Of a DNA stretch of 64,000 nucleotides, positions 5,615-36,329 are shown in pieces (within the stretch, counting starts at the first letter, position 1; the number at the start of each line of letters is the position of its first letter). Under the pieces are notes generated by a model. That model worked only from the letters and a program-made list of their open reading frames with translations. It did no database searches and had not been told where the DNA came from. The stretch comes from Massalongia carnosa. Taxonomy: Eukaryota. Both the position numbers and the translations under genes were made by a program. The stretch covers positions 558,001 through 622,000 of the forward strand of contig OZ287087.1 in assembly GCA_965645245.1 (NCBI GenBank). The letters are read 5' to 3'.

Positions 5615-5663
5615 TAGTTCCCCTCTCTCTTTAGGTGTCGACCCCTGACACCTATCACTGTTC

Positions 5664-6179: not shown

Positions 6180-6536
6180 GCCAAAAGATGTAAGGCAAGT
6201 AAGGTAAGATAAATTGTTCCAAGTTATCGAGTAGCTTGCTGACTTTCGCTTAGATAAGAAGTTGAGCTTAGCAGAGATGTTTGCTGATAGGAAGATAGTA
6301 TATGTGCTGATCAGGTAGGTAGTAAAAGCTAGATAATTTGCTGAGTTCTGGTAGTATGGAAAAGGTAAAACATGGAGGTGAGGATTCGGAAGATGGCAAT
6401 TTCGACTAAGGTTGGTGAAGTTTTCGGTGAATTTTGGTAAGTGTGAAATGAAACTATTCCGAAGGTTCGTGTGCTTCCTCCGCTGACAATATGCATTTTA
6501 CTAAGGAAATTCGTTCGATATAGGTAGTCGGATATG

Positions 6537-18861: not shown

Positions 18862-18898
18862 TTTCGTTATGGCGGTTTGGTATTTACCGTCCGCCGTA
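18862..18898. repeat. Right TIR of element copy A
   Basis: Exact reverse complement of 22056-22092; identical to 32007-32043. Confidence 0.92.
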
Positions 18899-19264
18899 GA
18901 TGGCGGGGCTGAATCCTAAGGTAGGCTAGATTTCGATGAGAACGAGCTTATACCTACCTATATCATAAAGGGGCTCGCTCTGCCATTCAGAATAACTGGA
19001 CCCTGTCATCTCCGTTGAATCCGGCGCCTCTGACGACGACCCCGTCGCTGATGCGGAGCAGTGCCCAGGCTCCGGGATGTAGGTCAGGCATAATTCACAT
19101 ACTACGCTATGGTATCTTGAATGACCGACCATCTTTTGTGGGTTGTGATTGTAAGCTGGGATCGGTGACTGCCGGTATCCTACGATTTTGCGCGTGAGTT
19201 CGAGCTGACGATCTACAGACCAAGCGCCTCCTGTCCGCACAAGAGCAGATGTCAGATCGCTACC

Positions 19265-21584
19265 ATGCCACCTATTTCAGACCTTGTGCAGCTTTCAAAG
19301 CTCGAGACTCAATTCCACTCTGATCCGGAATATACGCAACACGTCCAGTACATTTCTGGAAGTACGGCAAGACAAAGAAAAGTTCGCATGGAGGAAAAAT
19401 GGATGAGAGAAAGGATGCTAGGAAGCGGCAGTTTCGGGATCGTCTGGTTAGAGCGGTGTATTCAAGGGAACAGTGAAGGGAAAGTACGAGCTGTAAAGAA
19501 GGTCCGAAAACTTGAGTCCAGCGATTATTACAGAGAATTGGAAGCTATTGCTCTGTTTTCTCACAGCAATGTAAGTCTATACTGCTGTTATTCTTTCACA
19601 ACCTACTTTTCCACACCTTACGCTAACGTCAAGCTAGTACGAACGATGCTTTGTTAAGTCCTTCGGCTGGTATGATGATAGTGACAGCATATTTATTACT
19701 ATGGAGTACCTTTCATATGGTGATTTGCATAAGTACATCGGTTCGCCGCTACCAGAGAAGGAAGGACAGCATATCGTTTTTCAGATCCTCGAAGGCTTAC
19801 AATTCATGCATGATAAAGGGTTCGCTCACAGAGATTTAAAGCCAGCTGTAAGCCTAGCTACATGCATCAATATAATCAGAAAATTAGCTAATACTCTAAG
19901 TAATACAGAACATACTAGTTGTGGACAAAGGCCCAGAGTGGTGGGTCAAGATCGCAGACTTTGGAGTCAGCAAGCGGGCAACAGAGGGACTTACAGCATT
20001 AAGAACCCAAAAAGGCACACCTGCTTTTATGGCACCAGAAGTACTTGGCTTTATTCAATTGAACGACGAATCAAATGATTCGTATACAAACGCTGTTGAT
20101 ATCTGGTCTCTAAGTGTTATCACATTCTTCATACTCACCGGCGAGATTCTTTTCAAAGACCTGCGCCGTCTAGGTCAGTATGTTGCGGGCAACTTTAAAT
20201 TTCCTTTGAATGTCTTGCTTGTAAACAAAGTAAGTGGACAGGGATGCGACTTCTTAAAAAGCTCAATGGCGTCAAAATCTGAGGATCGTCCGAGGGCTAA
20301 TGAATGTTTACAACATTCGTGGTTGGATTTTCTTATAGAAGAGGCGGCTCCCGACACTCCAAGGTATTACTTCTTATAGATGGAGACAGAAAATTATTAT
20401 AATATCTTATAATAATAATGTTGTAGTGTTGCTGATATCTTTGCAGAAAAATCAATGTTACAAAGCCAATTTCAACACCGCTGGACTGTTCAGATCCTGA
20501 GCCCTCTGCTAATTGGAGCACTCAAGACTCAATCTCGGCCTACGAGACTTATAGCTCTACGGGCGTGCTTACTAAAAAGACTTCATCTACTTCTAAGGAA
20601 GCAGTAGCATCTTCAAAATCAGAACCAGCGACTCAAATCTATTGGCATATGGCAAGCATCCTCAAGGGTCATTCGGATTATGTTAGGGCGGTGGCATTCT
20701 CGCCAGACGGGAAGCAGATCGCGTCTGCATCGAGGGACACGACGATCAGGCTCTGGGACTCGGCCACGGGGGCTTCGCGCAACATCCTCAAGGGTCATTC
20801 GGATTATGTTAGGGCGGTGGCATTCTCGCCAGACGGGAAGCAGATCGCGTCTGCATCGTGGGACACGACGATCAGGCTCTGGGACTCGGCCACGGGGGCT
20901 TCGCGCAACATCCTCAAGGGTCATTCGGATTATGTTAGGGCGGTGGCATTCTCGCCAGACGGGAAGCAGATCGCGTCTGCATCGTGGGACACGACGATCA
21001 GGCTCTGGGACTCGGCCACGGGGGCTTCGCGCAACATCCTCGAGGGTCATTCGGGTGAGGTTGACGCGGTGGCGTTCTCGCCAGACGGGAAGCAGATCGC
21101 GTCCGCATCGTGGGACAGGACGATCAGGCTCTGGGACTCGGCCACGGGGGCTTCGCGCAACATCCTCGAGGGTCATTCGGATTATGTTAGGGCGGTGGCA
21201 TTCTCGCCAGACGGGAAGCAGATCGCGTCCGCATCGTGGGACAGGACGATCAGGCTCTGGGACTCGGCCACGGGGGCTTCGCGCAACATCCTCGAGGGTC
21301 ATTCGGGTGGAATTCTCACGGTGGCGTTCTCGCCAGACGGGAAGCAGATCGCGTCCGCATCGAGCGACACGACGATCAGGCTCTGGGACTCGGCCACGGG
21401 GGCTTCGCGCAACATCCTCAAGGGTCATTCGGGTGGAATTCTCGCGGTGGCATTCTCGCCAGACGGGAAGCAGATCGCGTCCGCATCGTGGGACAGGACG
21501 ATCAGGCTCTGGGACTCGGCCAGGGCTCGGCCACCGGGGCGGCGTAATAAGTTTTCCCAGTACCTAGAAAAGTTTTTCACATAG
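19265..21584 (+). CDS. Ser/Thr protein kinase fused to 7 highly conserved WD40 repeats, paralogue A (exons 19265-19570, 19638-19847, 19909-20363, 20447-21584)
   Basis: GSGSFG, AVKK, HRDLKPAN, DFG, GTPAFMAPE, DIWSL; three GT-AG introns splice in frame; 7 x 126-bp GH...WD repeats. Confidence 0.9.
20661..21522 (+). repeat. 7 x 126-bp WD40-coding tandem repeat
   Basis: Near-identical units varying mainly at GHSxxVxA and ASASxDx codons. Confidence 0.97.
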
Positions 21585-22202
21585 AAAATTATTACGACCT
21601 CCATCCCCACCCACCTCCATCGCCCTTTACGTCCTTATATACCATTTTAATCATTGGATTATTAATTCCTGCTTCAAAGAATGTCGCTCTGCTTTGAAAT
21701 CTAAGCTACTTCGAAATTCTTGTCCTGAAATGTACTTTTCTTTGAAATACACTTTGCTTTGAAATCCTATGTCACGGCGTATAACGACCTCGCGGTTAAA
21801 TAAGCTTTACCATTAAGTTAACCGACCTATTAGCCTTGTAGGACGAATAGGCACAAATCTGTAGTGAGAAACTTCAGTGCTTATTCTACTACGTGTACGA
21901 TAGAGGCACATTAATCAGAAAACGACAGTATAAACGCAAACAGAAAAAAGTAACCTTTCCAAAAACGCAGAACAAAGAACATAGCTTCAGGCGACGTCAC
22001 TACATCACAAACCAAATCCTGTTCCGCTGCCATCAAAACGAGACGAATGCAAATCTACGGCGGACGGTAAATACCAAACCGCCATAACGAAATTCTTGAG
22101 TTTCGAATCGCGACATTGCGACGAAAAAACAACGTACATTTATAATTCCACGCTTTCTTCTCTTCCCATTTCTTCCTCTCTATTATATAAAGTTAGTATA
22201 GT

Positions 22203-22878
22203 TCAATGATGGGACTTCGTACGATCTGAAACATACTCTTCAACCTTGTCTGATATGCTTAAAGTGTCAACCTGCGCTGCCGCTAACTCTCGAGACAACT
22301 GAACATCAGGGTTGTCTTCTACAGAAGACAACGAGACGGTTGTCTCAATTGTACGACGCTCTGACGCAGACGCAGACGACGAAAGAGGGAGTGCCACATG
22401 AGAGAACTGTTGCGTTAAGGGAGGAATAGGTCTGACGATCGCGTACACTCCGTCTATAACATAATTAAATAAAGCAATAAGATTCTCACATATTTTAGAC
22501 ATTACGTACGATATCGGCATTGAGCCGAAGCATCTCCCCAAACGCAATTGGCACACGCGCCTTCTCTCAAGACATCTAAACCATAGCATCCAATGAAGGG
22601 CCCCGATCCTCGTACGCAACGCTTGCACGGAAGATGACGAAGAGCCCCTCGAGATGCTATGATTAGAGCTTAAATATAAGAAGACCGGGCTCGTTCAATC
22701 TGATGTGCCTTGATCCCTTCCGCATGCCTTAATTGCACATTGCGACCCGTGGGACGTCGCAATAAGAAAACACGCAATTCTTCGTGCAGGTCATACGGAA
22801 GTAACTAAATCAAATTAGAAACATGAATAACAATATGAGACAAGAACTTACCTCAGGAGCTGCAGTCCGCACCATCAT
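22203..22878 (-). pseudogene. DUF3716-like Cys-cluster protein, copy B (3 exons, in-frame TAA at 22670-22672)
   Basis: MMVRTAAPE|LLPYDL...PCKRCVRGSGPFIGC...GACANCVW...C|DGVYAIVRP; introns start GTAAGT and GTAATG. The C-x2-C/GPF/C/CANC pattern matches DUF3716 as I recall it. Confidence 0.65.
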
Positions 22879-23633
22879 AGAATGAGTGAGAAGGTCAGCG
22901 GCAGAAGCCAAAGACGGCACTGAACATAATATATCAGTTCGTACGAGTCACTTACTGTTAGATAGATAAATGATATCACATACCGGAAGACATAGTGATG
23001 AGGACAATGATGAAAGAAAGAAAGAAGAAAAAATAAGTGAGCTTGAAGACTGCACATGATGATATTCACTGTCACAACACGAGCTTGCGTTATTCACCCG
23101 TACGTTTCATTATTAGACTTTCATATTATATTACACTCTCGATGTATATTTTAATCTAATTGACTTGCTTGGTTTCACTCTACATATAAGAGTTACTCGT
23201 CCTGAACACTGCGTAGAAGTGCAAGTCTTGTTCAGGTATCGTACACATCCCGTACGATTAAGTAGTGCTTGTGCTTGTGCTTGTGCTGTAACTTTAAAAA
23301 AATCTTCATACTCACTTTAATAAAGAACAATGTCAGTTTCTCGAGTCGTTCCGTCATCATTAAAAACATGATTCCCAAATATTCATTATATTATTACAAG
23401 ATTGCGCCAGTGTCATTTGAAACCTACCGCTCGTACGGGTCATTGTTGAATGATATATGTAGGGCTCGATGTCGTCAAACTTCAAATGCTTTCGCTTAAA
23501 TTTTGAAGTTAGGGTTACTCTATCGTTTTCAATAAAGGTGATGGCTGACTCAAGCCGTACGAAACATAAAACATGTGTACTTAAGAAAAGCCACAACTAA
23601 CAACTCCTTCATCAACCTAATACGAACAGAGAT

Positions 23634-24686
23634 TCAATGGCTCTGTTCTTCCGATTTTAAGTCCATCTTGGACCGCGTACGACGAGGTGATATCGTTGTC
23701 AAGATGGAAGTTGGCGGAGAGCGGACAGAAATGGTTCTTTTGCGTAGATTTTCCACTGAAGGAAAAGAAGAATCAGTCATTTCTTCGTGTAAATTGTTAA
23801 CAAGAGAATGCAACAACACGTACGAGTCATACCTTGAACATGCGCATCAGAAATCTTTTCCTGTTTGAAGATTTTGTTCTTCTTGACACATTCGTCCGAG
23901 TCTTTTCTTTCCAACTTGATTTTAGATTTCGAATTAAATCGAAGTCTGATCTTGGGTTTTACAGGAGTCTCCACAGTGTCTTTGTCCGAGGTGTCTTGCG
24001 AGTCGTACGAGGTATCCAGTCTCACCGCAATCACCCACATGTTGTATTCATTGATTGCAGACTTTTTAAAGTACTGCAGATATTCAATCAACGAAGTTAC
24101 ATCTCTAGCACTGCAACCCAAATCTGTGGCTCCATGTTTGTCTGACCAGTCACATGCCAAATACACTGCTATGGCAGTGGATTTCAGGTCATCGTAAGAT
24201 GTCATTTCTAGTAGGATTGATTTGTTTAGGAAAATGGAAGGATTGAACTCCGTGTGCTCGTTGAGAATTATGTTTGTCATGGCTAATATATTAATATAAC
24301 AACTCCTCACGGAAGAAACGACAGTATAAACACTTACAAACTTTGATCCATTTAACCGTCTTGCTGTTATCAAACAAATAACATTCTCGAATCACCAAAG
24401 GTGCAATTATCTTATGCACTATGCCAGAAGATACTTGAGATTGAGATCCTGTCTTCCGTACGCTCATGGCTGGCAATCCAGCATGAGGTTTCAGAGAAAC
24501 TTTGGACTTTGGAATAGTTCCCAGTCGTTGAAGATTCACATCCTTCCCATCTCCATACGTGGCAAATCGTTTTGCATGCTGAACTCTACCCCGATCTTGA
24601 GCCGTTTGTACATTCTGAGCTCTCAGTAGGTTCGTACGAGATTCAAGAATCTCGGGCGAATCGTCGAAGACAATATAATTTGCCAT
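23634..24686 (-). CDS. Transposon accessory gene of unknown function, copy B (probably 3 exons)
   Basis: MANYIVFDD...WIK | HTEFNPSIF...AHVQ | EMTDSSFPS...QSH*; basic, S/T-rich C-terminus; conserved in copy A. The ORF is open upstream to 24860. Confidence 0.5.
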
Positions 24687-25942
24687 AGACTTTCCAGGAG
24701 TGATTTCCGCTTTCGTAGCAGCAGAACGTGTCGGATTGAAAAAAAAAGCAATGAGGACAATGAGGCAAGCTCCAAAAATCGTTATGCGCCACGGGCGCTT
24801 TCGTACAAATTTCTTCCCAAGTTCTGGACGATATGATGTTGAAAATGATATTGAGGACAATGACTCTTATACAATTATCTCGCAATGGAAAGAACGCATC
24901 AATTAACAGAAACAAGATTTTCGACGCTTGTTCACCGCTACATCTTGCAATTAGTAAAATTGTCCACGTATCAAACTACTTATTCAGTAACTGCATGTGG
25001 AACGATCAATCGTATGACTGTGATATATATTATCATAACACAGTAGTACGTCTGAAAAAACTAGAACAAATTGTAACCCTGAAAAAATCCATCGTACGCT
25101 CACAACAAGTGAGCTAATCTCTTCTTATAACGCCATATGCAAATCCTCAAGAAAATCATCTTCTTGAGCGTTTTCATCTGGACCCTCCTCCGCTAATCCA
25201 GATCTTGCACCATTTCTCGATGCGTATGAAGAGCGTCCTCGTCAGGCTGCCATTGAAACGTGGCATTTGGCTTTTGACACAAGGTCAATTCCGGCTCTTG
25301 TTTACTTTGAATATGATCTGTTACTGCTTGTCGCAGTATTAAATATGCCACGCAATGCGTACGTTCTTGTGATTGATTAGAAAAAGCATCTGCTGCAGTG
25401 ATATTGTTGATGTCAATGTCAAGTCCTTGCATGATTTCTTGAATCCATTGCAAGGTTGTCGCAGGAAGATATTCATCAATGGCTGTAACATCATTAGGTC
25501 TCGTACGTGAAATGTTGAAGTCATAACATGCTTACGCCATTCTGCCACGTCATCTTGCAAGATTTGTAACAATTCCGCATTTGGCTGAAGGCGATGATCT
25601 TCTGTTCCTTCAGCGGGATAATTGTACAATCTGACAGATTGACCAGATAAAGAATTGAGTCGCTGACGCTGTTTGCGTATCCTGTGTACATGATGATGAT
25701 GATTATGATGATGTATTCAAACTCCGATATGACACCGGCCGTAGGCCGGCCCATGCGGGCAAAGCTATCTAAGTTATGTTACATGGAAAACCTTTCACAG
25801 GTGTAAAAACCATGTCCCTTGATACCCGTCCGATGTGACTACGTGTCGACGTCGGGCGGGAGACGCAGTGCAAAAGACGTGTGGGAACTGTAATGCCTTG
25901 TGAAAAGAGAAGAAAGAAAGAAAGGTTCAACTATTGTTGATT

Positions 25943-28900
25943 TTACAATATTGTTGATGCTAGTGAGAATTGATTCAATAAGCCTGTTTTCATTAGCCAA
26001 GCAGTTAGTATCTTCAGAGTTTTTGATGATTTGATCAGCTGCTGATAGTCGCTCGTGCCGGCGGCGCGAAACATCTGTTCTCTATTGTCAATAAGTCTGC
26101 AGAACATGATTACATGTTCTGGAGTTTGTCTGTGCCAGCCACATGAGCAGGCCGGTGAGGTGACGGAGGGCACCCGTCGCTTGTAGAGGAAGTCAGCTAA
26201 CCCGATTTTGCCAGTGCGGATTTGAGTTGTTAGAGCGCTTTCTGCCTTTTTTAGCTGCGTGTGTATTTTCAGCCGTTTTTTGCTCAGTGGGACTGATTGT
26301 GCTATGGAGGGTTCGATGACGCGATTTTGATATGCGCACCACGAGTCGTTCCAGACCTTCATTTGTCGTGCTTTGATTGTTTGCATCTGCTTGTGTCGGG
26401 CCGTTGCCGCAACGGTAGCTTCGCGGTGCCACGCCGGGTAGACTTCGAACCATGGTGGGTGTGCCTTTGGTGGTTGAACTATTTTTGAGTCGATCAGTAG
26501 GCTTTTGGCCCAGATGTGTTTCAGCTCTCCCGGGGTGGGCTTTTGAAGTCGGTTGCGACCTGCCTTGCCTCGAAGTTTGTCAGCTATTTTGTTGCATGCG
26601 GAGGAGATGATCTTCAATTGGCCTCCGGCTCGGAGCCGGTGCCTTGCCTGTGCTTGTAGCATGTCGAGATGCGTGTCTATGGGCGCTATGAATGTCTCTG
26701 CTTCTAGTACTGAGATGGGAGTGGCTTTAAAGGCACCGGCTATGGTGCGAAGGTAATTGTTTTGCATGACGGAGAGCTTGCTCGTTGACGTTTTTGACTT
26801 TTTGACTTCTTTGGGCATGTGCCATACGGTTGACCCATATGTCATGGCCGGACGCACCACGGCACTGTAAACCTGCCTTGCCTTGGCGAAGGTGGCACCC
26901 CAGGTTGATGTGGAAATTTTTGTCAATGCCATGGATTGTTTGACCATTTTCTCTTGCGTTTTGCGAACGTGCGGTCCCCATTTCAATTTGGTGTCGATTT
27001 GTAGGCCCAATACTCTGATGTCCGTTTTAGGTTCAATTTCGGTGCTAGCAATATTGATGGATGCAGTCATGTTGAATCTTTTGGGATTTCTGGACAAGTG
27101 TATGAGTTCGTACTTCGTCGGAGCGAATACGGACCTGTGCCGGGAAGCCCACGTCTCACATTGTCTGTGTATTGCCTCTAGAGTTTTGCAGTTTTCCTCG
27201 GTGCTTTTTCCATATGCCAAAATGTTTGCGTCGTCTACGAATGCTATGGCACTTGTGTTTTTGCCTGGTCGATCACATATTTCCAATAGATCTGCATTGT
27301 AAAATAGGTAAAGAATGGATGACAGGGGAGAGCCCTGTGGGATACCCGTTCTTACCGCAAACCGCCCAGTGACTTTTCGATTTATTGCTAAAGTGGTGCT
27401 TCGATCGCTCAGAAAGCTGTTTAACCAGTCGGTGATCCATTTTGGAATTTTTCTTTTCCGTAGGTTGTGCGTTAGTCGTTGATGTGATACCGTATCGAAC
27501 GCGCCGGCGACGTCCATGCTTAGCAGTGTGGCTACTTTGTCTTTTCCCTGTCCCCAAATCGTGTGAACCTGTTCAGTTAGCAGTTCCAGTGCTGACTCTG
27601 TGGATCTGCCCTTCCTTGCTCCCATCTGTGTATCGGGTAGGAGCCGGTGTTTTTCCGCCAGATAGGTTATTTTCGATCCAATGATGGATTCCATAACTTT
27701 ACTGAGCGTGTTGAGCAGTGCAATTGGTCGGTAGGCTTTCGGCGTGGTATAGTCTCCTTTGCCTATTTTTTTCAGCGCTATTGTGTTTGCCATTTTGAAG
27801 GCCCGCGGGTGGTACGAGTGTGTGACGCACGCCTGAAACAGAGGTGTTAGTAGTTCGACAAGTATTTCGCTGCATGCTTTGAGTATTCTGTTAGATATGC
27901 CGTCTGGGCCCGGTGCCTTATCGGACTTGAGCCGACTCAGGGCCGTCGATACTTCTGACTTGGTGATGATTATTGGGCAGTGCGGCGATGTAGGATAGAA
28001 GGATCCTTCTATGTCGCTTAGGTCGGCCGGTGGTGGTGCGGGAAAGAAGACACCTTTCAGCATTTCGGCTTTTTGGTCAAACGTGTCTGCTACTTGGTCA
28101 TTGAATTTTAGCATCGGCATTTTGGATACTTCTCTAGATTGATGACTTTTGTCTTTGGCCCATTTCGCTAGCCGCCATAGTCCCTGAGGCGTTTCGGTGG
28201 CCTTATTGATTTCTTGACGAAAGTTTGTTCTCTTTGCCTTTTGAATGATTTTCTGTTTTTTATCATTGGATTTCATATAGTTAGACCAGTCCGTTAGGTC
28301 TAACGTGCTGGACCATATGCGGCGTAGTTTCCGTGTGGCTTTGGTGGCAATGCTGCATTCTTCTGTCCAGAATGGCTTAGCATATTCGCTAGATTTTGCC
28401 CATGGAACTGCTTCGTTGATGACATTTTGTAGAAATTTTTGAATCGATTCCGTGTACGCATCAATCTCGGCAGTGGTACGGGGAGACTCCGGTATAGGGG
28501 CGTGTCGTTCGGCCTCCCTTAATTTTTCCAGGTTTAGAAGTTTCCATGCTCTGCGTTTGATTTTCGGTTGCGGCTCGCTTCCGAGTAGGATGCGGGTTGA
28601 TATCGGCACGTGATCGGACGATTGATTCAATTCTGGTCTGGACATGCAGTGTTCGAGTCTTTCGACTAGGTATTCTGACATGAAAACCAAATCTATCGTG
28701 CTAGACGTGTTTCTTGCTTCCCATGTTACGGTGCCTTTCGGCAGTGTCAACGAAAGATTATGATCATCGATTATTTCCAGTAATTGATCAGCAGCAGCGT
28801 GTTGTGTGCGTCTTGAGGGACCATTCCAAAAGGGATGATGCAGGTTGAAATCTCCAAGTAGTATGTGATGCGCATCGGCGGTAAGCATGCTCCGAGCCGC

Positions 28901-29296
28901 CGGTAAGGTCGTGGGACTGTCAGTGGATGAATAGGAAGCGGGAGAGGGGTTATACACATTATGGACGTGAATTGTTTCCATAACGCCTTCGGTGTAGGTC
29001 TTTCTTTTCAAAGTGCACATGTCGGCCGAGGTGAATTCCACCTCCCAGCTGTCAGTGTCTATTAGGTCGTTGACATAAAAGCACACTCTGGTGTCACCTC
29101 CTGGGCGGTATAGGAGGTGAAAGCCGCTTTGATGAGAACTAAGCGATGTGGGGGCGGATGGATTGCGCCACGGTTCCTGTATTGCAATAATATCATAGTC
29201 CTGGGTGTTTGTGTCTGCTAAGAGGGGTATCATAGTACTCACTCTGTCATTTCTGACATTATATTGCAATATAGAGAGGGATTTTGTGTCCCTCAT
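25943..29296 (-). CDS. LINE ORF2 (AP endonuclease, reverse transcriptase, C-terminal CCHC)
   Basis: QYNV, IQEP, GDFNLHH, SDH; PGPDGI, GIPQGSPLS, FVDD; CSCG..EHVIMFC. Confidence 0.95.
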   Translation of the reverse strand: MRDTKSLSILQYNVRNDRVSTMIPLLADTNTQDYDIIAIQEPWRNPSAPTSLSSHQSGFHLLYRPGGDTRVCFYVNDLIDTDSWEVEFTSADMCTLKRKTYTEGVMETIHVHNVYNPSPASYSSTDSPTTLPAARSMLTADAHHILLGDFNLHHPFWNGPSRRTQHAAADQLLEIIDDHNLSLTLPKGTVTWEARNTSSTIDLVFMSEYLVERLEHCMSRPELNQSSDHVPISTRILLGSEPQPKIKRRAWKLLNLEKLREAERHAPIPESPRTTAEIDAYTESIQKFLQNVINEAVPWAKSSEYAKPFWTEECSIATKATRKLRRIWSSTLDLTDWSNYMKSNDKKQKIIQKAKRTNFRQEINKATETPQGLWRLAKWAKDKSHQSREVSKMPMLKFNDQVADTFDQKAEMLKGVFFPAPPPADLSDIEGSFYPTSPHCPIIITKSEVSTALSRLKSDKAPGPDGISNRILKACSEILVELLTPLFQACVTHSYHPRAFKMANTIALKKIGKGDYTTPKAYRPIALLNTLSKVMESIIGSKITYLAEKHRLLPDTQMGARKGRSTESALELLTEQVHTIWGQGKDKVATLLSMDVAGAFDTVSHQRLTHNLRKRKIPKWITDWLNSFLSDRSTTLAINRKVTGRFAVRTGIPQGSPLSSILYLFYNADLLEICDRPGKNTSAIAFVDDANILAYGKSTEENCKTLEAIHRQCETWASRHRSVFAPTKYELIHLSRNPKRFNMTASINIASTEIEPKTDIRVLGLQIDTKLKWGPHVRKTQEKMVKQSMALTKISTSTWGATFAKARQVYSAVVRPAMTYGSTVWHMPKEVKKSKTSTSKLSVMQNNYLRTIAGAFKATPISVLEAETFIAPIDTHLDMLQAQARHRLRAGGQLKIISSACNKIADKLRGKAGRNRLQKPTPGELKHIWAKSLLIDSKIVQPPKAHPPWFEVYPAWHREATVAATARHKQMQTIKARQMKVWNDSWCAYQNRVIEPSIAQSVPLSKKRLKIHTQLKKAESALTTQIRTGKIGLADFLYKRRVPSVTSPACSCGWHRQTPEHVIMFCRLIDNREQMFRAAGTSDYQQLIKSSKTLKILTAWLMKTGLLNQFSLASTIL

Positions 29297-30780
29297 AGGA
29301 TTTCCAGCGTTTCGGCCGCTGTGTTCGATGTGACCTGAGTTCCTGCCGTTAATGCTACGGAATCTGCACGAGGCCTACCCAGCACTGGTTTTGCTAAGGC
29401 CTTTACCATATTTTCAGGATTCATGATGCCTATATTAGCCCAGGTAGGTGCGTCGTTTCCCCGATGAGGGCCCGGGGGTGTGCCGGATGAGGGCGTAGCG
29501 TTGTGTATTTTTCTTTTCTTGCCGTTTACTATCTTCCACGTTGATGGAATTTCGTCCGTTTGTGTGACTGTGGGTGTCGACTCTCGTTGAAGTTGAAATT
29601 GAAATGAGGGCGGCTGTGATTCAATTGCATAGAGGGGGGCGCGGTTTTGCATTGCTATTTCAGTTTTTCGCTTTTCAGCTAATCTGACTTTGCATGCTGT
29701 GGACCATGCTTCGTGTCCCTTCTCTCCGCATACGGCGCAACGGCGGTATTGCCCCGTTGTCTCCATATTGCATTCTTTGCTTTGATGTCCACCGGCGCAG
29801 TGACCACAGGCGGCGGGATTGCGGCATGCTCTACCGATGTGTCCGTATTTTTGGCAGTTGAAGCATTGAGTCATGGTGCAACCACGTGTGAAGCGCTCGC
29901 AGTCCTTTATTTCGTAGCTTTCCATTAGGCCCTCGGTGATGAGCCGGTTAGCCATCTCGGCGGTGGCGACCTCGATATGAAGCGTCGAGTACGCTTTTTT
30001 CTCTCTAATGGCCTTGATTGACCAGGCTACTTTGACGATCTTCAGGTTAGGGTGCAGGCGTGCGTTAGCGGCCTGAAGGTAGGTGATGGCTGTTGATTGA
30101 TTGGCCACTTTGATGTTTTCCACCCTGATTCCATTCGCTCTTACGGTGAAGGTGCGGGTGTGCACCGCAGCTGAGGCGGCCACCATGCGGGTCCAATCGG
30201 TCTTCTCCTGCAGGGTCTTCTTTGCTTCCAATGACTCTGCGTGAATCCTGATGTCGCCGTTTAACAAACGCGACACTCCCCTTATTCCTTCAGCTCCATT
30301 TTGTAGTGTTTCTACTAACTCCTTGGTTGGCATTAGCTTCATTTTTTCCTTGTCCGCATCCTCCGTGATGTGAACGGTGATTTCCCGGGCACGTCGCGCT
30401 TCTCTTGGTGTGGGTGCTTTGTCTTTGCGGGGCTGTTGAGGCTTGACGTTTTGGTTCTTTGGGGGTGCGGGCTCATCTCGGCCTTGCCTTGTGGCAGCAG
30501 CGGCATAGCTGCGAGGAGTGGTCTCATTGCGCTCTATGCGTGTCAATGATTGTTGGATTGCCTGTAATGTGTCACCTATGTTGTTGGGAGTTTCTGCAAC
30601 TTTGTCATCGACTAGATTTTGCGCTTGCAAAATTTCCGCTGAGTTTCTCAGCAACTGCAACGCCTCCGGGTCACCAACGGTGCCCACTCGATCAAGATAC
30701 TCCTTGATCTTTACGTGTAAACATTCCCTCCTTTCGCTGTGCGCTCTCGAGAGCGCGTTTGTTTGTTCGAGTGTAGTCAT
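29293..30780 (-). CDS. LINE ORF1 (gag-like, three zinc knuckles)
   Basis: ATG at 30780 inside the element; CFNCQKYGHIGRAC, CGHCAGGHQSKEC, CAVCGEKGHEAWSTAC. Confidence 0.92.
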   Translation of the reverse strand: MTTLEQTNALSRAHSERRECLHVKIKEYLDRVGTVGDPEALQLLRNSAEILQAQNLVDDKVAETPNNIGDTLQAIQQSLTRIERNETTPRSYAAAATRQGRDEPAPPKNQNVKPQQPRKDKAPTPREARRAREITVHITEDADKEKMKLMPTKELVETLQNGAEGIRGVSRLLNGDIRIHAESLEAKKTLQEKTDWTRMVAASAAVHTRTFTVRANGIRVENIKVANQSTAITYLQAANARLHPNLKIVKVAWSIKAIREKKAYSTLHIEVATAEMANRLITEGLMESYEIKDCERFTRGCTMTQCFNCQKYGHIGRACRNPAACGHCAGGHQSKECNMETTGQYRRCAVCGEKGHEAWSTACKVRLAEKRKTEIAMQNRAPLYAIESQPPSFQFQLQRESTPTVTQTDEIPSTWKIVNGKKRKIHNATPSSGTPPGPHRGNDAPTWANIGIMNPENMVKALAKPVLGRPRADSVALTAGTQVTSNTAAETLEIL

Positions 30781-32408
30781 TTTCGCGACAAGTTTATTTG
30801 GGGGTGAGTATTCCTGTGTACATTCCACAATCGTACGAATCCAAAGATCTCTCGCCGAATGATAGGAGTATAAATAGCTAGAAATGCAATGCAATCGGAC
30901 AACATATGAGAATCATAGAGCTTGTCTTCTTGCAACATGGAAAAATACGTCTGTAATGTGTTAACGCTTGTCATTGAAAATGTACGAAAGCGATGACTTA
31001 CTCGCCATCTAAACATAGAACTCTTTGTCAGTTGTCCCCACCATGCCTCGATTCGTTGATTCGCTGTACTAGTACCATAGTAATAACATTCCTCAAAAGA
31101 AATATCAGGCAATTGCTTCTGCATTAACTGATAGTGAGCATTGGCCATCATTGTTGTCTCGGAACCTCTATCCGTACGAATGATCTGAGGCTGGGTGTTT
31201 TCTCTTTGCAGAATATCCAAATATTGACGCAACACGCTGACACCGGTTCTATTTGTGATACCTACATAAGCGTAAACCTCAAGCCCGTACGCCTTGAGTT
31301 TATCGTATCCATCCATAGACCAAAGATAATTCGGTCCCGGAATAACGTATTCTCCTCTATGTCGAAGCAAGTCGGAATAACGCAGTTTTATTCCCACAGG
31401 ATCTAACGTACGAACAGCGGCAAACAATCTATCACTGAAAAGTTATTAGTAACTTAAAATGACGAGTCTCAAAGATTTACACAGGCCGTGAGATAATGTT
31501 TCCTTGCGTACGAAAGTGATAGAATAATTGTCCTCGTCCGAATCCATCAATAACTCCGGAATCTAGTTCCTGACGCACTAGTCTTTCTGCTTCAGCGTCT
31601 GCTTCCGCTTTATTGAAAACAGACACTCGTTTGTATATGCCCATAGATTTTCGAATTCGTTGTAAAGCTCGTGGTGCAATAGTAAAACCTTCTTGCACAA
31701 GAGCATGTAGTGTGTCTGCATCATTGAAGCAAGACTCGTACGTAAGAGCAATAATTCGTAATCTAAGACCAGCAGTATCTGAAGTTATAACATGTGTGCC
31801 AAGAATCCAGCTTTTCAAACGTTCGTTCCAGAGTTCTTCTATTGACTCGTACAGAATGATTTTGAGACAAAAGATATCTTATTTCTAAGACTGTATGTTT
31901 TTGTTGTATCAAACCTGTAACATACAGTTTGTATGCTTCCAAATCAATAAATCGTGGAGGCATTTGTAACTTGTAAGGTGCGAGGTCGCGATTGACAGTT
32001 TCAAATTTTCGTTATGGCGGTTTGGTATTTACCGTCCGCCGTAGATGGCGGGGCTGAATCCTAAGGTAGGCTAGATTTCGATGAGAACGAGCTTATACCT
32101 ACCTATATCATAAAGGGGCACGCTCTGCCATTCAGAATAACCGGACCCTGTCATCTCCGTTGAATCCGGCGCCTCTGACGACGACCCCGTCGCTGATGCG
32201 GAGCAGTGCTCAGGCTCCGGGATGTAGGTCAGACATAGTTCACATACTACGCTATGGTATCTTGAATGACCGACCATCTTTTGCGGTTTGTGATTGTAAG
32301 CTGTGATCGGTGACTGCCGGTATTTTACGATTTGCGCGTGAGTTCGAGCTGATGATCTACAGACCAAGCGCCTCCTGTCCGCACAAGAGCAGATGTCAGA
32401 TCGCTACC

Positions 32409-34726
32409 ATGCCACCTATTTCAGACCTTGTGCAGGTTTCAAAGCTCGAGACTCAATTCCACTCTGATCCGGAATATACGCAACACGTCCAGTACGTTTC
32501 TGGAAGTACGGCAAGACAAAGAAAAGTTTGCATGGAGGAAAAATGGATGAGAGAAAGGATGCTAGGAAGTGGCAGTTTCGGAATCGTCTGGTTAGAGCGG
32601 TGTATTCAAGGGAACAGTGAAGGGAAAGTACGAGCTGTAAAGAAGGTCCGAAAACTTGAGTCCAGCGATTATTACAGAGAATTGGAAGCTATTGCTCTGT
32701 TTTCTCACAGCAATGTAAGTCTACTGCTGTTATTTTTTCACAATACACGTTTTCACACTTTAAGCTAACTTCAAGCTAGTACGAACGATGCTTTGTCAAG
32801 TCCTTCGGCTGGTATGATGATAGCGACAGCATATTCATTACTATGGAGTACCTTTCATATGGTGATTTGCACAAGTACCTCGGTTCACCGCTACCAGAGA
32901 AGGAAGGACAGCATATCGTTTTTCAGATTCTTGAAGGCTTACAATTCATGCATGATAAAGGGTTCGCTCACAGAGATTTAAAGCCAGCTGTAAGCCTAGC
33001 TACATGCATAAATAAATCAAAAACATTACCTAATACTCCAAGTAATACAGAACATACTAGTTGTGTGCAAAGGCCCAGATTGGTGGGTCAAGATCGCAGA
33101 CTTTGGAGTCAGCAAGCGGGCAACAGAGGGACTTACAGCATTGAGAACCCAAAGAGGCACACCTGCTTTTACGGCACCAGAAGTACTCGGCTTGATTCAA
33201 TCGAACGACGAATCAAATGATTCGTATACAAACGCTGTCGATATCTGGTCTCTAAGTGTTATCACATTCTTCATACTCACCGGCGAGATTCTTTTCAAAG
33301 ACCCGCGCCGTCTAGTTCAGTATGTTGCGGGCAACTTTAAATTTCCTTTGGATGTCTTGCTTGTAAAAAAAGTAAGCGGACAGGGATGCGACTTCTTAAA
33401 AAGCTCAATGGCGTCAAAGTCTGAGGATCGTCCAAGGGCTAATGAATGTTTACAACATTCGTGGTTGGATTTTCTTATAGAAGATGCGGCTCCCGACACT
33501 CCAAGGTATTACTTCTTATAGATGGAGACAGAAAATTATTATAATATCTTATAATAATAATATTGTAGTGTTGCTGATATCTTTGCAGAAAAATCAATGT
33601 TACAAAGCCAATGTCAACACCGCTGGACTGTTCAGATCCTGAGCCCTCTGCTAGTTGGACCACTCAAGACCCAATTTCGGCCTACGAGACGCATAGCTCT
33701 ACGGGCGTGCTTACTAAAAAGACTTTGTCTACTTCTAAGGAAGCAGTAGCACCTTCAAAATCAGAACGAGCGACTCAAATCTATTGGCATATGGCAAGCA
33801 TCCTCAAGGGTCATTGGGGCGGGATTTGGGCGGTGGCATTCTCGCCAGACGGGAAGCAGATCGCGTCCGCATCGGGGGACATGACGATCAGGCTCTGGGA
33901 CTCGGCCACGGGGGCTTCGCGGAACATCCTCAAGGGTCATTCGGGTAGGGTTGTGGCGGTGGCATTCTCGCCAGACGGGAAGCAGATCGCGTCCGCATCG
34001 GGGGACAGGACGATCAGGCTCTGGGACTCGGCCACGGGGGCTTCGCGCAACATCCTCAAGGGTCATTCGGGTAGGGTTGTGGCGGTGGCGTTCTCGCCAG
34101 ACGGGAAGCAGATCGCGTCCGCATCGGGGGACACGACGATCAGGCTCTGGGACTCGGCCACGGGGGCTTCGCGCAACACCCTCAAGGGTCATTCGGATTA
34201 TGTTAGCGCGGTGGCATTCTCGCCAGACGGGAAGCAGATCGCGTCCGCATCGGGGGACACGACGATCAGGCTCTGGGACTCGGCCACGGGGGCTTCGCGC
34301 AACATCCTCAAGGGTCATTCGGATTATGTTAGGGCGGTGGCATTCTCGCCAGACGGGAAGCAGATCGCGTCCGCATCGGGGGACACGACGATCAGGCTCT
34401 GGGACTCGGCCACGGGGGCTTCGCGCAACATCCTCAAGGGTCATTCGGATTATGTTAGGGCGGTGGCATTCTCGCCAGACGGGAAGCAGATCGCGTCCGC
34501 ATCGGGGGACACGACGATCAGGCTCTGGGACTCGGCCACGGGGGCTTCGCGCAACATCCTCAAGGGTCATTCGGATTATGTTAGCGCGGTGGCATTCTCG
34601 CCAGACGGGAAGCATATCGCGTCCGCATCGGGGGACACGACGATCAGGCTCTGGGACTCGGCCAGGGCTCGGCCACCGGGGCGGCGTAATAAGTTTTCCC
34701 AGTACCTAGAAAAGTTTTTCACATAG
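32409..34726 (+). CDS. Ser/Thr kinase-7xWD40 fusion, paralogue B (4 exons)
   Basis: Same exon structure and intact kinase motifs as paralogue A; WD40 variable residues differ. Confidence 0.9.
33803..34664 (+). repeat. 7 x 126-bp WD40-coding tandem repeat
   Basis: Near-identical units; every unit reads ASASGD. Confidence 0.97.
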
Positions 34727-36329
34727 AAAATTATTACGACTTCCTTCCCCACCCACCTCTATCGCCCTTTACGTCCTTATATACCATTTTAATCATTGGA
34801 TTATTAATTCCTGCTTCAAAGAATGTCGCTCTGCTTTGATTTCTAAGCTACTTCGAAACTCTTGTCCTGGAATGTACTTTGCTTTGAAATCCTAAGTCAC
34901 GGCGTATAACGACCTCGCGGTTAAATAAGCTTTACCATTAAGTTAACCGACCTATTAGCCTTGTAGGACGAAAAGGCACAAATCTGTAGTGAGAAACTTC
35001 AGTGCTTATTCTACTACATGTACGATAGGGGCACATTAATCAGAAATCGACCAGAGTATAAACGAAAAGAGAAAAAAAGAACCCTTCCAAAAACGCAGAA
35101 CGAAGAACGTAGCGTAACATTACTCTTCAGTAAAGACGTCACTACATCACAACCCAAATCCTGTTCCGCTGCCATCAAAACGAGACGAATGCACATCTCC
35201 GAAACAAAACAATAGCAATAACGGACGGAAAGAAGGCGTTTTCACCCTCTTTGCAATAATCTTACGAGAAATCATTACTAACTCCCTTGCCAGCGCGTTT
35301 TGCGTTTCTGTCATTTGCAAGCAAGTAAGTCATGACGAGTCTTCCCCGTCGAAAACGATTGCTTGACCAGCATGCATGTATGCTCAACGGGGGACTTGCA
35401 TAATAACTCACAGAAGATCGCAATGCGTAGATGTAAACTGCTTCAGGAAAGCTGTTGTCAGCGAGTCGTGAGTCGACCGCCTATGTACGAGTACATACTC
35501 TGCCAACGAGTTGTCGCGGGGGTTCACATAAATACTGCAACCTGAGTCCTTGGTTTATTTTAGCCGTCATCCATCTTAACTACTAATCAAGAATTTCCCC
35601 ACCTTGGCCTACACCCCGTTTTGTGTTCTAGCCAGCGACTCCGTAAAGCTAGCTAGATACCTAGATATTTCCCTCCCCAATCAACATAACTCGCGGTCGA
35701 CGAAAGCCAGACGTCTGGGAAAGTAAACGGGGCGCGACCTTCGGTACTAAAAGACCACCATGGTATGTACATAAGTAGAAACACTCCCTGATTCTTTTCC
35801 AGTGTAGTTGCTGGTGTTGGATTATCATTCGGAAAGCGGCCTGCGAAGTTGTGTACTTAGTTACATGGTTACTCTAGACTTCAGTGGGGCTTTGTGGGGG
35901 CTCCATGGCTCTGGGTTGAGAATGTATTTTTCAGGGTCTTGAAAAACGGGGTAATATTACATAGTTATGGATTTCTTAATGGGGCTGTGGGTTTCAGTAC
36001 CTCGTGATGAAATGTATCGTTCTGTTCATACTCAATCTCTCACTTCTAACCTCTCGTCTTCTCATTATTGATTGTTTATCGCTCACATTATTCATTATTC
36101 ACGGTTCAGTCATCAAGCTCTTGGGCACTGGGAGTGTTGAGTTCGTAGCTAAAAATGCAGTCGCTTGCGATGAATGATGATACAAGCTTCGACGAGAACG
36201 AATGCGTCGAGCTTTGTCGGCGTAATAGAACCAGTTCAGTTGGGATGGGACAGTGAGATATGTGGTGCCGTGGTGGATGATGAACGCACTGCTGGAAGAT
36301 AATTGGGCTTTGATAAAGAGTAAGACAAG

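What the first reader, a model, noticed from the sequence alone, without database searches (positions are those of the whole stretch)
19265..34726. Kinase-hypervariable WD40 fusion genes: candidate NOD-less fungal immune receptor kinases
Seen: two intact 4-exon paralogues join a complete Ser/Thr kinase to exactly seven 126-bp WD40 units. The units are almost identical at DNA level except for a few codons (after GH: SDYVRA, SGEVDA, SGGILT, WGGIWA, SGRVVA, SDYVSA; ASASxDx: RDT, WDT, WDR, SDT, GDM, GDR, GDT). No NACHT/NB-ARC, signal peptide or transmembrane segment is visible. Known: this repeat consensus and pattern of hypervariable top-face residues is the hallmark of Podospora HNWD NLRs (het-d, het-e, het-r), where it sets recognition specificity. 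Inference: an NLR-type diversifying sensor wired directly to a kinase, i.e. a cytosolic receptor kinase for non-self recognition.
Basis: partly seen in the sequence, partly recalled or inferred. Interest (0 to 1): 0.88.

Follow-up and report, generated by a model that had tools for sequence, protein, structure and literature searches.

The report
Kinase fused to hypervariable WD40 propeller
Two neighbouring copies of a fungal gene join an intact-looking protein kinase directly to a seven-bladed WD40 propeller whose binding face differs from blade to blade; this is an immune-receptor-style sensor without the usual NLR switch domain, it occurs in many ascomycetes, and nobody appears to have studied it.

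Summary
Two 4-exon genes (19265-21584 and 32409-34726, + strand) each encode 702 aa: a CAMK-like Ser/Thr kinase with all catalytic motifs, a conserved linker, and exactly seven 126-bp WD40 units. There is no NACHT/NB-ARC domain, signal peptide or membrane segment. The genes lie in a tandem segmental duplication inside a transposon-rich region that also holds an NB-ARC-TPR gene.

Unit variation sits at unit positions 4, 5, 7, 23 and 25. These include the three known WD40 top-face hotspots (R1-2, R1, D-1). The same five positions are the most variable in 10 relatives from other species. The kinase is under purifying selection (dN/dS 0.28).

The architecture is not unique to this window: it is a Pezizomycotina family, best represented in lichen-forming fungi, annotated only as hypothetical proteins. 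None of 61 relatives scanned has a NOD. Sister kinase clades carry TPR or ankyrin repeats instead.

An immune or non-self role remains inference. I found no RNA, population or functional data. I rate it a new variant of known kinds (fungal high-internal-conservation repeat sensors; bacterial PkwA-type kinase-WD40 proteins).

The parts
19265..21584 (+). Copy A of the kinase-WD40 gene (702 aa). Exons 19265-19570, 19638-19847, 19909-20363, 20447-21584.
   Evidence: Gene model; Pfam; colinear with orthologues.
19265..20363 (+). Copy A, exons 1-3: conserved N-terminal extension of about 45 aa, then a CAMK-like Ser/Thr kinase domain (GSGSFG, AVK, HRDLKPAN, DFG, APE).
20447..20651 (+). Copy A, start of exon 4: linker with the conserved D-x-EPSA-x-W-S/T-TQD motif, then the IYW strand that closes the last blade.
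   Evidence: strand at residues 65-73 of the exon-4 product.
20652..21522 (+). Copy A: array of seven 126-bp WD40 units with high internal conservation.
   Evidence: 6.9 copies, 94% matches.
21523..21584 (+). Copy A: short C-terminal tail (predicted helix, KF..LEKFF) and stop codon.
   Evidence: helix at residues 369-377, low confidence.
32409..34726 (+). Copy B of the kinase-WD40 gene (702 aa). Exons 32409-32714, 32780-32989, 33051-33505, 33589-34726.
33794..34664 (+). Copy B: array of seven 126-bp WD40 units. Glycine at unit position 23 in all seven units.
   Evidence: 6.9 copies, 96% matches.
18072..22056 (.). Duplicated segment, copy 1 (pairs with 31214-35198).
   Evidence: blastn, 94.8% identity over 4008 columns; mosaic divergence.
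31214..35198 (.). Duplicated segment, copy 2.
30780..31442 (-). Integrase-like ORF (Pfam rva_4) lying head-to-head with copy B, inside the duplicated unit. Truncated counterpart at 17842-18300 and a displaced piece at 14885-15300.
25946..30912 (-). LINE-type retrotransposon (endonuclease + reverse transcriptase ORF, and a gag-like ORF) inserted between the left part of duplicated unit 2 (24795-25497) and its integrase-like ORF.

Best explanation
These are two intact, tandemly duplicated members of a Pezizomycotina family of cytosolic CAMK-group Ser/Thr kinases. In this family the C-terminus is a single closed seven-bladed WD40 propeller built from near-identical repeats. The repeats are kept alike by unit turnover inside each array (concerted evolution), while the residues that form the ligand-binding top face are diversified.

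Proposed working: the propeller is a variable recognition module. It captures a protein ligand on its top face and thereby either presents that ligand to the attached kinase or switches the kinase on. Recognition is turned directly into phosphorylation without the nucleotide-driven oligomerisation step of an NLR. The two copies have very different top faces (tryptophan at the D-1 position in 5 of 7 blades in A, glycine in 7 of 7 in B), so they would bind different ligands. The likely arena is interaction with other organisms or non-self.

Shown: gene structure, domains, fold, intact catalytic motifs, purifying selection on the kinase, placement of the variation, family distribution.
Inferred: ligand binding, coupling to kinase activity, and the biological role.
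For: Structure and integrity:
- Searches give the gene models and domains. All catalytic motifs are present.
- Between A and B, the kinase has dN/dS 0.28 (dS 0.076), the linker 0.83 and the WD region 1.71.

Fold:
- AlphaFold2 with a 17-row alignment gives pLDDT >= 90 for 292 residues and 28 strands, i.e. 7 blades of 4.
- Foldseek matches 7-bladed propellers, including the PkwA WD40 domain 5yzv (TM 0.98 normalised to the target, rmsd 0.9-1.0 A).

Repeat conservation:
- Offset-42 identity is 0.95 in A and 0.96 in B.

Placement of the variation:
- Among the 14 units, the positions with most residue types are 7 (6 types), 5 (4) and 23 (4), then 25 (3) and 4 (2).
- By the rule of Wu et al. 2012 (PMC3419727, passages read), positions 5, 7 and 23 are R1-2, R1 and D-1, the general top-face interaction hotspots.
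- In the model they fall in the loop before strand a, the start of strand a, and the b-c turn.
- That the three hotspots named in advance are the top three of 42 positions has chance 1 in 11480 (my arithmetic).
- Mean pairwise pN is 0.40 at codons 4, 5, 7, 23 and 25 against 0.008 at the 34 scaffold codons. pN/pS is 1.99 against 0.22.

Replication in other species:
- In the 10 of 17 relatives where at least 4 units could be parsed, the most variable within-protein positions are 23, 5, 7, 4 and 25.

Turnover:
- A2 = A3 and B5 = B6 are identical over 99 nt, and units at the same rank in A and B do not match.

Family:
- Kinase-WD40 relatives occur in Lobaria, Lasallia, Sticta, Letrouitia, Endocarpon, Varicellaria, Psora, Ciborinia and Rhinocladiella. 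Some species have more than one copy.
- In a quick tree of 73 kinase domains the window genes fall in a clade with SH-aLRT 99 that holds 13 WD-linked rows of 17.

No NOD:
- 0 of 61 relatives scanned with Pfam have NACHT or NB-ARC.
- No Walker A motif in 40 of 40 first hits.

Context:
- The region is transposon-rich and carries an NB-ARC-TPR gene at 55.7-60.7 kb. PMC13449251 (passages) reports the same kind of association with transposons for highly repetitive NLRs.
Against: - No transcript, protein, polymorphism or phenotype data exist for these genes or any relative that I found.
- The 14 units are not independent samples. Six of them share the signature SDYVRA, so the real diversity is modest: 11 signatures over positions 4, 5, 7, 23 and 25.
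- pS is also raised at the hot codons (0.20 against 0.036), so pN/pS of about 2 is not a formal test of positive selection.
- Repeat number is fixed at seven in both copies, and seven units were parsed in three relatives (P0007, P0037, P0013). HNWD genes, by contrast, vary in repeat number.
- More distant kinase-WD relatives (P0059, P0091, P0129, P0144, P0177) have WD40 domains with offset identity of only 0.12-0.15. This fits a conserved cellular partner at the root of the family.
- Without a NOD there is no known switch, and how ligand binding would reach the kinase is unknown.
- High internal conservation also occurs in 5.59% of repeat proteins without an ATPase (PMC13449251), so it is not diagnostic of immunity.
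Confidence: 0.5

Rival explanations
1. An ordinary signalling kinase. The propeller binds a constant endogenous partner or substrate. The near-identity of the repeats is a neutral by-product of recent unit duplication and gene conversion, and the variable codons are simply the least constrained surface positions.
For: - More distant kinase-WD relatives have low internal conservation.
- Repeat number is fixed at seven.
- Six of 14 units share one signature.
- Highly repetitive WD40 proteins are described as evolutionarily young in fungi and bacteria generally (PMC5587647, passages).
- The kinase, the linker motif and the tails are conserved.
Against: - The variable codons are the three interaction hotspots, not random loop positions.
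- They differ by several nucleotides per codon, e.g. TAT/GAG/GGA/AGG and AGG/GAC/CTC/TGG/GTG/AGC, while 34 scaffold codons have pN 0.008.
- The same five positions are the most variable in 10 relatives.
- A constant partner would be expected to constrain exactly these residues.
- The family is patchy and multi-copy rather than a one-to-one orthogroup.
Confidence: 0.25
2. A bait or guarded target. The kinase-propeller protein mimics or is itself a target of effectors from other organisms, and its modification is monitored by NLRs such as the NB-ARC-TPR gene 21 kb downstream.
For: - Kinase domains are discussed as candidate integrated decoys in Sordariales NLRs (PMC12258605, passages).
- An NB-ARC-TPR gene lies in the same window.
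Against: - The neighbouring NB-ARC-TPR reading frame is broken.
- Nothing links the two genes beyond distance.
- A decoy would not be expected to keep every catalytic motif and a dN/dS of 0.28, although it could.
- Conservation of this neighbourhood in other genomes could not be examined.
Confidence: 0.1
3. A decaying remnant: an NLR that lost its NOD, or cargo duplicated with a mobile element, with no function of its own.
For: - The region is transposon-rich, and an integrase-like ORF is part of the duplicated unit.
- Both duplicated units were later hit by insertions outside the gene.
Against: - Both copies have open frames, intact splice sites and a kinase dN/dS of 0.28.
- The same architecture, with the same frame breaks, linker motif and tail, recurs in other species.
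- 0 of 61 relatives scanned have a NOD.
- There is no RIP-like mutation bias between the copies.
Confidence: 0.05
4. A gene-model artefact: the kinase exons and the WD40 ORF are two separate genes, or the seven-unit arrays are assembly collapses of longer arrays.
For: - No RNA evidence.
- Highly repetitive WD40 arrays are known to be misassembled from short reads (PMC12222747, passages).
- A metagenome relative shows only one unit, which is probably such a collapse.
Against: - The third intron is phase 2 and restores the single long frame.
- There is no in-frame ATG-led start for a separate WD40 gene that orthologues support. At least 10 annotated proteins from other species span both parts, with a conserved linker.
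- Both copies, and the three relatives in which seven units were parsed, have seven units, the number needed for one closed propeller.
Confidence: 0.05

Closest known systems
Podospora anserina HNWD/NWD NLRs (het-e, het-d, het-r)
   Same: - 42-aa WD40 units with very high internal identity, maintained by concerted evolution.
- Hypervariability at a few top-face positions. The published high-dN/dS positions 10, 11, 12, 14, 30, 32 and 39 (PMC12222747) correspond to my unit positions 3, 4, 5, 7, 23, 25 and 32 if the numbering is offset by 7. That offset is my inference from the spacing of the positions. Six of the seven vary here.
- The scaffold is 0.65-0.74 identical to fungal NACHT-WD40 proteins.
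- Transposon-rich surroundings.
   Different: - No HET domain and no NACHT.
- A kinase sits in the effector position, joined to the repeats by a 70-aa linker.
- Exactly seven units forming one propeller, not long arrays of variable length.
- The repeats are closest to those of kinase-WD orthologues rather than to any NLR examined.
Fungal NLRs with an N-terminal protein kinase domain (Dyrka et al. 2014)
   Same: A kinase is listed among the N-terminal domains of fungal NLRs whose C-terminal parts are WD40, ANK or TPR repeats (PMC4986451, passage and supplement rows).
   Different: - Those proteins have a NOD between kinase and repeats and are rare (4 orthologue groups in that survey).
- Here 0 of 61 relatives have a NOD.
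- Whether the kinases are the same clade could not be tested, because no sequence of a kinase-NLR was to hand.
Bacterial Ser/Thr kinase-WD40 proteins (PkwA of Thermomonospora curvata; cyanobacterial and planctomycete relatives) and the Nostoc highly repetitive propeller 2YMU
   Same: - Same order of domains: N-terminal kinase, C-terminal 7-bladed WD40 with highly similar repeats.
- These are the best matches among natural solved structures: 2ymu at E 7.6e-207 and 5yzv at 6e-116 by sequence, and 5yzv at TM 0.98 by fold. A designed 7-bladed propeller (7big) ranks just above 5yzv in the fold search.
- The kinase-WD40 association in bacteria is noted in PMC5587647.
   Different: - The kinase here is a eukaryotic CAMK-type domain. 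Its nearest solved relatives are STK17A/B, CHK2, CaMK1 and Rad53, and its nearest sequences are fungal.
- The gene has three spliceosomal-type introns.
- The function of PkwA is itself unknown (my recollection).
Plant kinase fusion proteins used as non-NLR resistance genes (e.g. wheat Pm13)
   Same: The concept: an intracellular kinase fused to a non-NOD domain acts in pathogen recognition. Seen only as a search listing and the start of an abstract (PMC11297308).
   Different: Different fusion partners, no repeat array with concerted evolution, no homology shown. This is an analogy only.
LRRK2/ROCO kinases and Vps15 (eukaryotic kinases with a C-terminal WD40 domain)
   Same: Kinase followed by a WD40 propeller. 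LRRK2 also has a short helix after the propeller (recalled, not checked), as these proteins may have (helix at residues 369-377, low confidence).
   Different: Those have additional GTPase or HEAT domains, divergent non-repetitive blades, and are conserved single-copy genes.

Membership tests
Fungal NLR (STAND NTPase with repeats) | Central nucleotide-binding oligomerisation domain (NACHT or NB-ARC) with a Walker A motif | tested here: not met
   No NACHT or NB-ARC among the Pfam matches shown for any exon product. The 702-aa protein is filled by kinase, a 70-aa linker and seven units. 0 of 61 relatives have one. No Walker A in 40 of 40 first hits.
Fungal NLR (STAND NTPase with repeats) | C-terminal WD40, ANK or TPR repeat domain | tested here: met
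   Seven WD40 units.
Fungal NLR (STAND NTPase with repeats) | N-terminal effector or signalling domain from the known repertoire | tested here: met
   Pkinase is in the list of Dyrka et al. 2014.
HNWD family (het-e/d/r) | N-terminal HET domain | tested here: not met
   No HET match among the Pfam matches shown.
HNWD family (het-e/d/r) | WD40 repeats with high internal conservation and hypervariable top-face positions | tested here: met
   Offset identity 0.95-0.96. Variation at unit positions 4, 5, 7, 23 and 25.
HNWD family (het-e/d/r) | Repeat-number polymorphism between strains | not testable with these tools
   The public runs hold only short contigs. The metagenome scan found no copy above 73% identity.
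Eukaryotic protein kinase, CAMK-like | Complete catalytic core: G-loop, beta-3 lysine, HRDLKxxN, DFG, APE | tested here: met
   GSGSFG, AVK, HRDLKPAN, DFG and APE are present in both copies. Pkinase profile positions 61-263 are matched. Nearest solved kinases are STK17A/B, CHK2 and CaMK1.
Seven-bladed WD40 propeller | Seven four-stranded blades closed by an N-terminal strand | tested here: met
   28 strands, with the first (residues 65-73) preceding unit 1; pLDDT >= 90 for 292 residues. Matches 7-bladed structures at TM 0.9-0.98 normalised to the target.
PkwA-type bacterial kinase-WD40 | Common descent of the whole architecture | tested here: inconclusive
   The WD40 domain is 48-49% identical to PkwA's. 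The kinase's closest relatives, however, are fungal CAMK-like kinases. No joint phylogeny was made.

The most novel reading that the evidence does not exclude
Ascomycete fungi have a second, NOD-less class of intracellular recognition proteins. One CAMK-like kinase lineage, marked by a shared N-terminal extension of about 45 aa, has been wired directly to each of the three repeat types that fungal NLRs use as sensors: WD40, ankyrin and TPR_10/12. These sit in separate subclades, and some have repeats under concerted evolution with diversified binding faces. On this reading the proteins turn recognition of non-self (other strains, symbionts, bacteria, mycoparasites) straight into phosphorylation. 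They would be a fungal counterpart of plant kinase fusion resistance proteins, and in lichen-forming fungi they could take part in partner recognition.
Probability: 0.3. Interest if true: 0.85.

Novelty: new variant of a known kind. Interest (0 to 1): 0.58.

Why it matters
Work on fungal innate immunity is built around NLRs, and surveys start from the NOD domain. Proteins that carry the same diversifying repeat sensors but lack a NOD are therefore invisible to those surveys.

This window gives a clean pair of such genes. The analysis here shows three things:
- They belong to a widespread, unnamed kinase family.
- Different branches of that family carry WD40, TPR or ankyrin repeats.
- The diversified residues are the propeller's interaction hotspots, in this genome and in ten relatives.

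If these proteins do recognise variable ligands, they offer a simpler system than an NLR for asking what such repeat arrays bind and how binding is signalled: one enzyme, one propeller, and an assayable output. They would also broaden the catalogue of immune-type receptors in fungi, including lichen symbionts. If they do not, they show that concerted evolution with hotspot diversification is not in itself a marker of immunity.

Tried and rejected
- Whole genome of the window: none is held. Other WD40 or NLR genes of the same organism could therefore not be compared, and repeat exchange between loci could not be tested.
- RNA evidence: no RNA holder was listed among the 9 runs returned.
- Laying four runs on 19100-21700 (first attempt failed on the machine; repeated). 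This gave only short contigs, 676 nt at most among the pieces listed. Some run through introns. No joint appeared at the three predicted splice sites, as expected of DNA. The contigs are too short to count repeats.
- Of 25 coding-region differences that I picked from the 40 rows printed (a further 105 rows were not shown), 19 are the letter of copy B. What was laid is therefore mostly B-like sequence. I draw no conclusion on presence or absence of copy A.
- Metagenome scan with exon 3: 78 loci, best 73% identity, none from the same species. No isolate comparison was possible. L003 and L004 have no tandem array. L003 encodes the same four-part frame structure with a single WD40 unit, which is probably a short-read collapse.
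- Single-sequence AlphaFold2 model: mean pLDDT 55. Replaced by the alignment-based model.
- Earlier findings of this scan: nothing by place or by sequence.
- RIP as the source of divergence between the copies: rejected. There is no CpA-to-TpA bias; 8 C/T changes were before A against 16 before G.
- Recent derivation from an NLR by loss of the NOD: rejected on family distribution.
- Literature searches for a description of fungal kinase-WD40 proteins with repetitive, hypervariable repeats and passages of the main fungal NLR papers gave none. The held supplements of Hu et al. 2017 contain no 'kinase' entry. One supplement file of Dyrka et al. 2014 could not be searched.
- The careful tree search did not finish. 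The tree cited is the quick one.
- A complex prediction was not run, because no binding partner is claimed.

Full report
**What is there**

The region holds two paralogous genes on the + strand. I located the exon borders from the sequence and translated the joined exons in scripts.
- Copy A: 19265-19570, 19638-19847, 19909-20363, 20447-21584.
- Copy B: 32409-32714, 32780-32989, 33051-33505, 33589-34726.
- The introns are 61-83 nt, all GT..AG. The third is phase 2 and restores a single frame.
- Each CDS is 2109 nt (702 aa). The proteins differ at 63 residues.

Pfam finds Pkinase in exons 2 and 3 (profile positions 61-263) and seven WD40 repeats in exon 4. No NACHT, NB-ARC or HET was among the matches shown. 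Exon 1 supplies the G-loop and the beta-3 lysine. GSGSFG, AVK, HRDLKPAN, DFG and APE are intact in both copies. There is no hydrophobic N-terminus, and the only hydrophobic 19-mer is the buried kinase helix. Tandem Repeats Finder reports 6.9 copies of a 126-bp unit at 20652-21522 (94% matches) and at 33794-34664 (96%).

**Gene model without RNA**

No RNA run was available (see 'tried and rejected'). The spliced products align without gaps across all three junctions to single annotated proteins from Lobaria, Endocarpon, Varicellaria, Lasallia, Psora, Ciborinia and Rhinocladiella. A metagenome contig 67% identical in exon 3 has breaks in its reading frames at the same three places as the window's introns.

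The alignment also shows three conserved accessory features:
- an N-terminal extension of about 45 aa before the kinase;
- a linker motif, D-x-EPSA-x-W-S/T-TQD;
- a short basic/hydrophobic C-terminal tail, predicted helical at low confidence.

**Genomic setting**

The genes lie in a tandem segmental duplication: 18072-22056 matches 31214-35198 at 94.8% over 4008 columns. Two further matches, 14885-15300 to 30805-31221 and 14023-14727 to 24795-25497, show that the original unit was about 5 kb. It included an integrase-like ORF (Pfam rva_4) lying head-to-head with the kinase gene.

Each unit was later broken outside the gene:
- by a 2.8-kb insert bounded by inverted 21-bp repeat arrays in unit 1;
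- by a LINE-type element in unit 2.

Divergence between the copies is mosaic: 1.2-1.9% in the upstream region, exon 1 and intron 3; about 4% in exons 2-3; about 15% in introns 1-2; 7.5% in the arrays. There is no RIP-like bias. This suggests an older duplication partly homogenised by conversion. The rest of the window is copia, gypsy, DDE and piggyBac-type elements, plus an NB-ARC gene with 24.6 near-identical TPR units.

**Selection and repeat dynamics**

Between A and B (Nei-Gojobori):

| Region | dN/dS |
|---|---|
| Kinase | 0.28 (dS 0.076) |
| Linker | 0.83 |
| WD40 region | 1.71 |

Among the 14 units, amino-acid variation is concentrated at unit positions 4, 5, 7, 23 and 25, counting the G of GH as 1. 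These have 2, 4, 6, 4 and 3 residue types, often with multi-nucleotide codon differences. The other variable positions are singletons, a V/I exchange, or a K/E exchange at position 42. Mean pairwise pN is 0.40 at the five codons against 0.008 at 34 scaffold codons. pN/pS is 1.99 against 0.22. pS is also raised at the hot codons, and the units are not independent, so this is suggestive rather than a formal test.

Adjacent units A2/A3 and B5/B6 are identical over 99 nt, and units of equal rank in A and B do not correspond. The arrays have therefore been reshuffled since the duplication while keeping seven units. Position 23 is glycine in all seven B units, and tryptophan in five, arginine in one and serine in one A unit. 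This is a gene-specific sweep that changes the whole ring of D-1 residues.

**Where the variable residues sit**

Wu et al. 2012 (PMC3419727, abstract and passages) define the general top-face hotspots of WD40 blades as R1 and R1-2 at the start of strand a, within the pattern (V/L/I)-R1-R2-(V/L/I), and D-1 before the tetrad aspartate. In the unit ..SDYVRAVAF..ASWDT.. these are positions 7, 5 and 23. These are exactly the three positions with most residue types. The chance of that for three positions named in advance is 1 in 11480 (my arithmetic).

An AlphaFold2 model from a 17-row alignment is confident over the propeller (292 residues at pLDDT >= 90). It has 28 strands, the first being the linker's IYW strand that closes blade 7. 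In it, positions 4-5 fall in the loop before strand a, 6-7 at its start, and 23-25 in the b-c turn. By established knowledge of the fold, these elements make the top face. I could not extract coordinates to measure clustering.

Foldseek and sequence searches place the domain next to the Nostoc highly repetitive propeller 2YMU, designed 7-bladed propellers, and the WD40 domain of the bacterial kinase PkwA.

The published high-dN/dS positions of the Podospora HNWD repeats are 10, 11, 12, 14, 30, 32 and 39 (PMC12222747, passage). With an offset of 7 they match my positions 3, 4, 5, 7, 23, 25 and 32. I infer that offset from the spacing and did not verify the repeat frame. Six of the seven vary here.

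**The family**

A word-indexed search with exon 3 found 40 proteins at E <= 1e-10. The closest (60-77% identity) are kinase-WD40 proteins of 477-741 aa from lichen-forming and other ascomycetes. All are 'hypothetical', and some species have two hits. None of the 40 has a Walker A motif.

An exhaustive HMMER search found 9436 hits at E <= 1e-3 but only 19 at E <= 1e-30. Pfam scans of 61 longer relatives gave 0 with NACHT or NB-ARC:

| Partner domain | Relatives |
|---|---|
| TPR_10/TPR_12 | 6 |
| Ankyrin repeats | 6 |
| Clear WD40 matches (plus one weak beta-propeller match) | 3 |
| SH3, ENTH, WW, ricin-B or VPS13_C | a few |
| Nothing beyond the kinase | the rest |

Named members come from Penicillium, Aspergillus, Malbranchea, Cryomyces, Elasticomyces, Zasmidium and Teratosphaeriaceae.

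I made a quick maximum-likelihood tree of 73 kinase domains. Of 76 near-full matches, three tandem multi-kinase proteins were dropped, and the careful search did not finish. In this tree:
- the window genes fall in a clade with SH-aLRT 99 holding 13 WD-linked rows of 17;
- all six TPR-linked kinases fall in a neighbouring 12-row clade with SH-aLRT 97;
- the five ankyrin-linked kinases, with one WD-linked protein, fall in a third region.

Most of these kinases match the N-terminal extension.

Internal repeat identity is high in the window's subclade and in two outliers (0.65-0.96; P0002 lower at 0.48). It is moderate in one ankyrin protein (0.66) and one TPR protein (0.59), and low (0.12-0.15) in the more distant WD-linked kinases.

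In the 10 of 17 relatives where at least four units could be parsed, the most variable within-protein positions are 23, 5, 7, 4 and 25, the same five as here.

At scaffold positions the window's unit is most like those of kinase-WD orthologues (0.79-0.86), and next most like fungal NACHT-WD40 proteins (0.65-0.74).

**Reading**

The anatomy is that of an NLR sensor arm joined directly to an enzyme. The kinase is conserved and apparently active. The propeller's interaction surface is the only part that changes fast, and it does so in several species.

The most economical mechanism is that the top face binds a variable protein ligand, and that binding either delivers the ligand as substrate or relieves an inhibited state of the kinase. 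CAMK-group kinases are commonly autoinhibited by segments after the catalytic domain (general knowledge), and the conserved linker and tail are candidates for that role. All of this is inference.

Against an immune reading:
- repeat number is fixed;
- signature diversity is modest;
- the deeper relatives have ordinary propellers;
- high internal conservation also occurs outside NLRs (5.59% of repeat proteins without an ATPase; PMC13449251, passage).

The rival explanations are listed with their odds in the Rival explanations section.

**Comparison and novelty**

The proteins are not NLRs and not HNWD members, because the defining NOD and HET domains were tested for and are absent. They share the repeat behaviour of those families.

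They share domain order and propeller type with bacterial PkwA-type kinases, but the kinase is of eukaryotic CAMK type. Kinase domains are known as rare N-terminal domains of fungal NLRs (PMC4986451) and as C-terminal, possibly decoy, domains in Sordariales NLRs (PMC12258605).

Six full-text searches and targeted reading of nine papers found no description of fungal NOD-less kinases with repetitive, hotspot-variable repeats. The sequences themselves are public as hypothetical proteins.

I therefore rate this a new variant of known kinds, of moderate to good interest. It is a well-founded lead whose functional claim is untested. The broader pattern, one kinase lineage paired with all three NLR-type repeat classes, is the part most worth following.

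Noticed in passing
window 55691-60748 (+): NB-ARC/AAA_16 ORF followed by 24.6 near-identical 126-bp TPR_10/12 units (57352-60444). This is an NLR-type gene with a highly repetitive TPR array. The reading frame shifts near 58640-58658, and an in-frame stop lies at 59897-59899, so it is either a pseudogene or an assembly error in the array.
   Followed up: partly
window 15300-18072: A 2.8-kb insert splits the integrase-like ORF of duplicated unit 1. It is bounded by inverted arrays of a 21-bp repeat (15316-15385 and 17988-18056) and contains ORFs with only a weak FAR1 DNA-binding hit. It is possibly a non-autonomous DNA transposon.
   Followed up: partly
window 17842-18733, 30780-32011 (-), 14885-15300: A repeated integrase-like (Pfam rva_4) gene lies head-to-head with each kinase-WD40 copy. 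Its upstream ORFs run to within a few bases of the kinase start codon. It may have mediated the duplication.
   Followed up: partly
window 160-13171, 25946-30912, 45649-54446: Dense transposon content: copia-type and gypsy-type LTR elements, a LINE with endonuclease and reverse transcriptase, a Tc5/DDE_1 transposase and a piggyBac-like transposase.
   Followed up: no
window 19571-19637, 19848-19908 versus 20364-20446 and 18072-19264: Divergence between the two copies is strongly mosaic: introns 1-2 about 15%, intron 3 at 1.2%, and 1.2 kb upstream at 1.9%. This points to gene conversion between the paralogues after an older duplication.
   Followed up: partly
window 19265-20590, public runs X1-X4: In four DNA-like public runs, 19 of the 25 coding-region differences I checked against copy A are the letter carried by copy B. 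At several sites no contig carries A's letter. This could mean that copy A is private to the assembled strain, but the contigs are too short to tell.
   Followed up: partly
L003 562-2172 (+): A metagenome relative (67% identity in exon 3) has reading-frame breaks at the same three places, the linker motif and the C-terminal tail, but only one WD40 unit. This is most likely a short-read collapse of a repetitive array, and a warning for surveys of this family.
   Followed up: no
proteins P0007 (Endocarpon pusillum) versus Lecanoromycetes members: The kinase of the lichen-forming eurotiomycete Endocarpon groups inside the Lecanoromycetes kinase-WD40 clade in the quick tree, with weak support. This could reflect retention, or transfer between lichen-forming fungi.
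   Followed up: no
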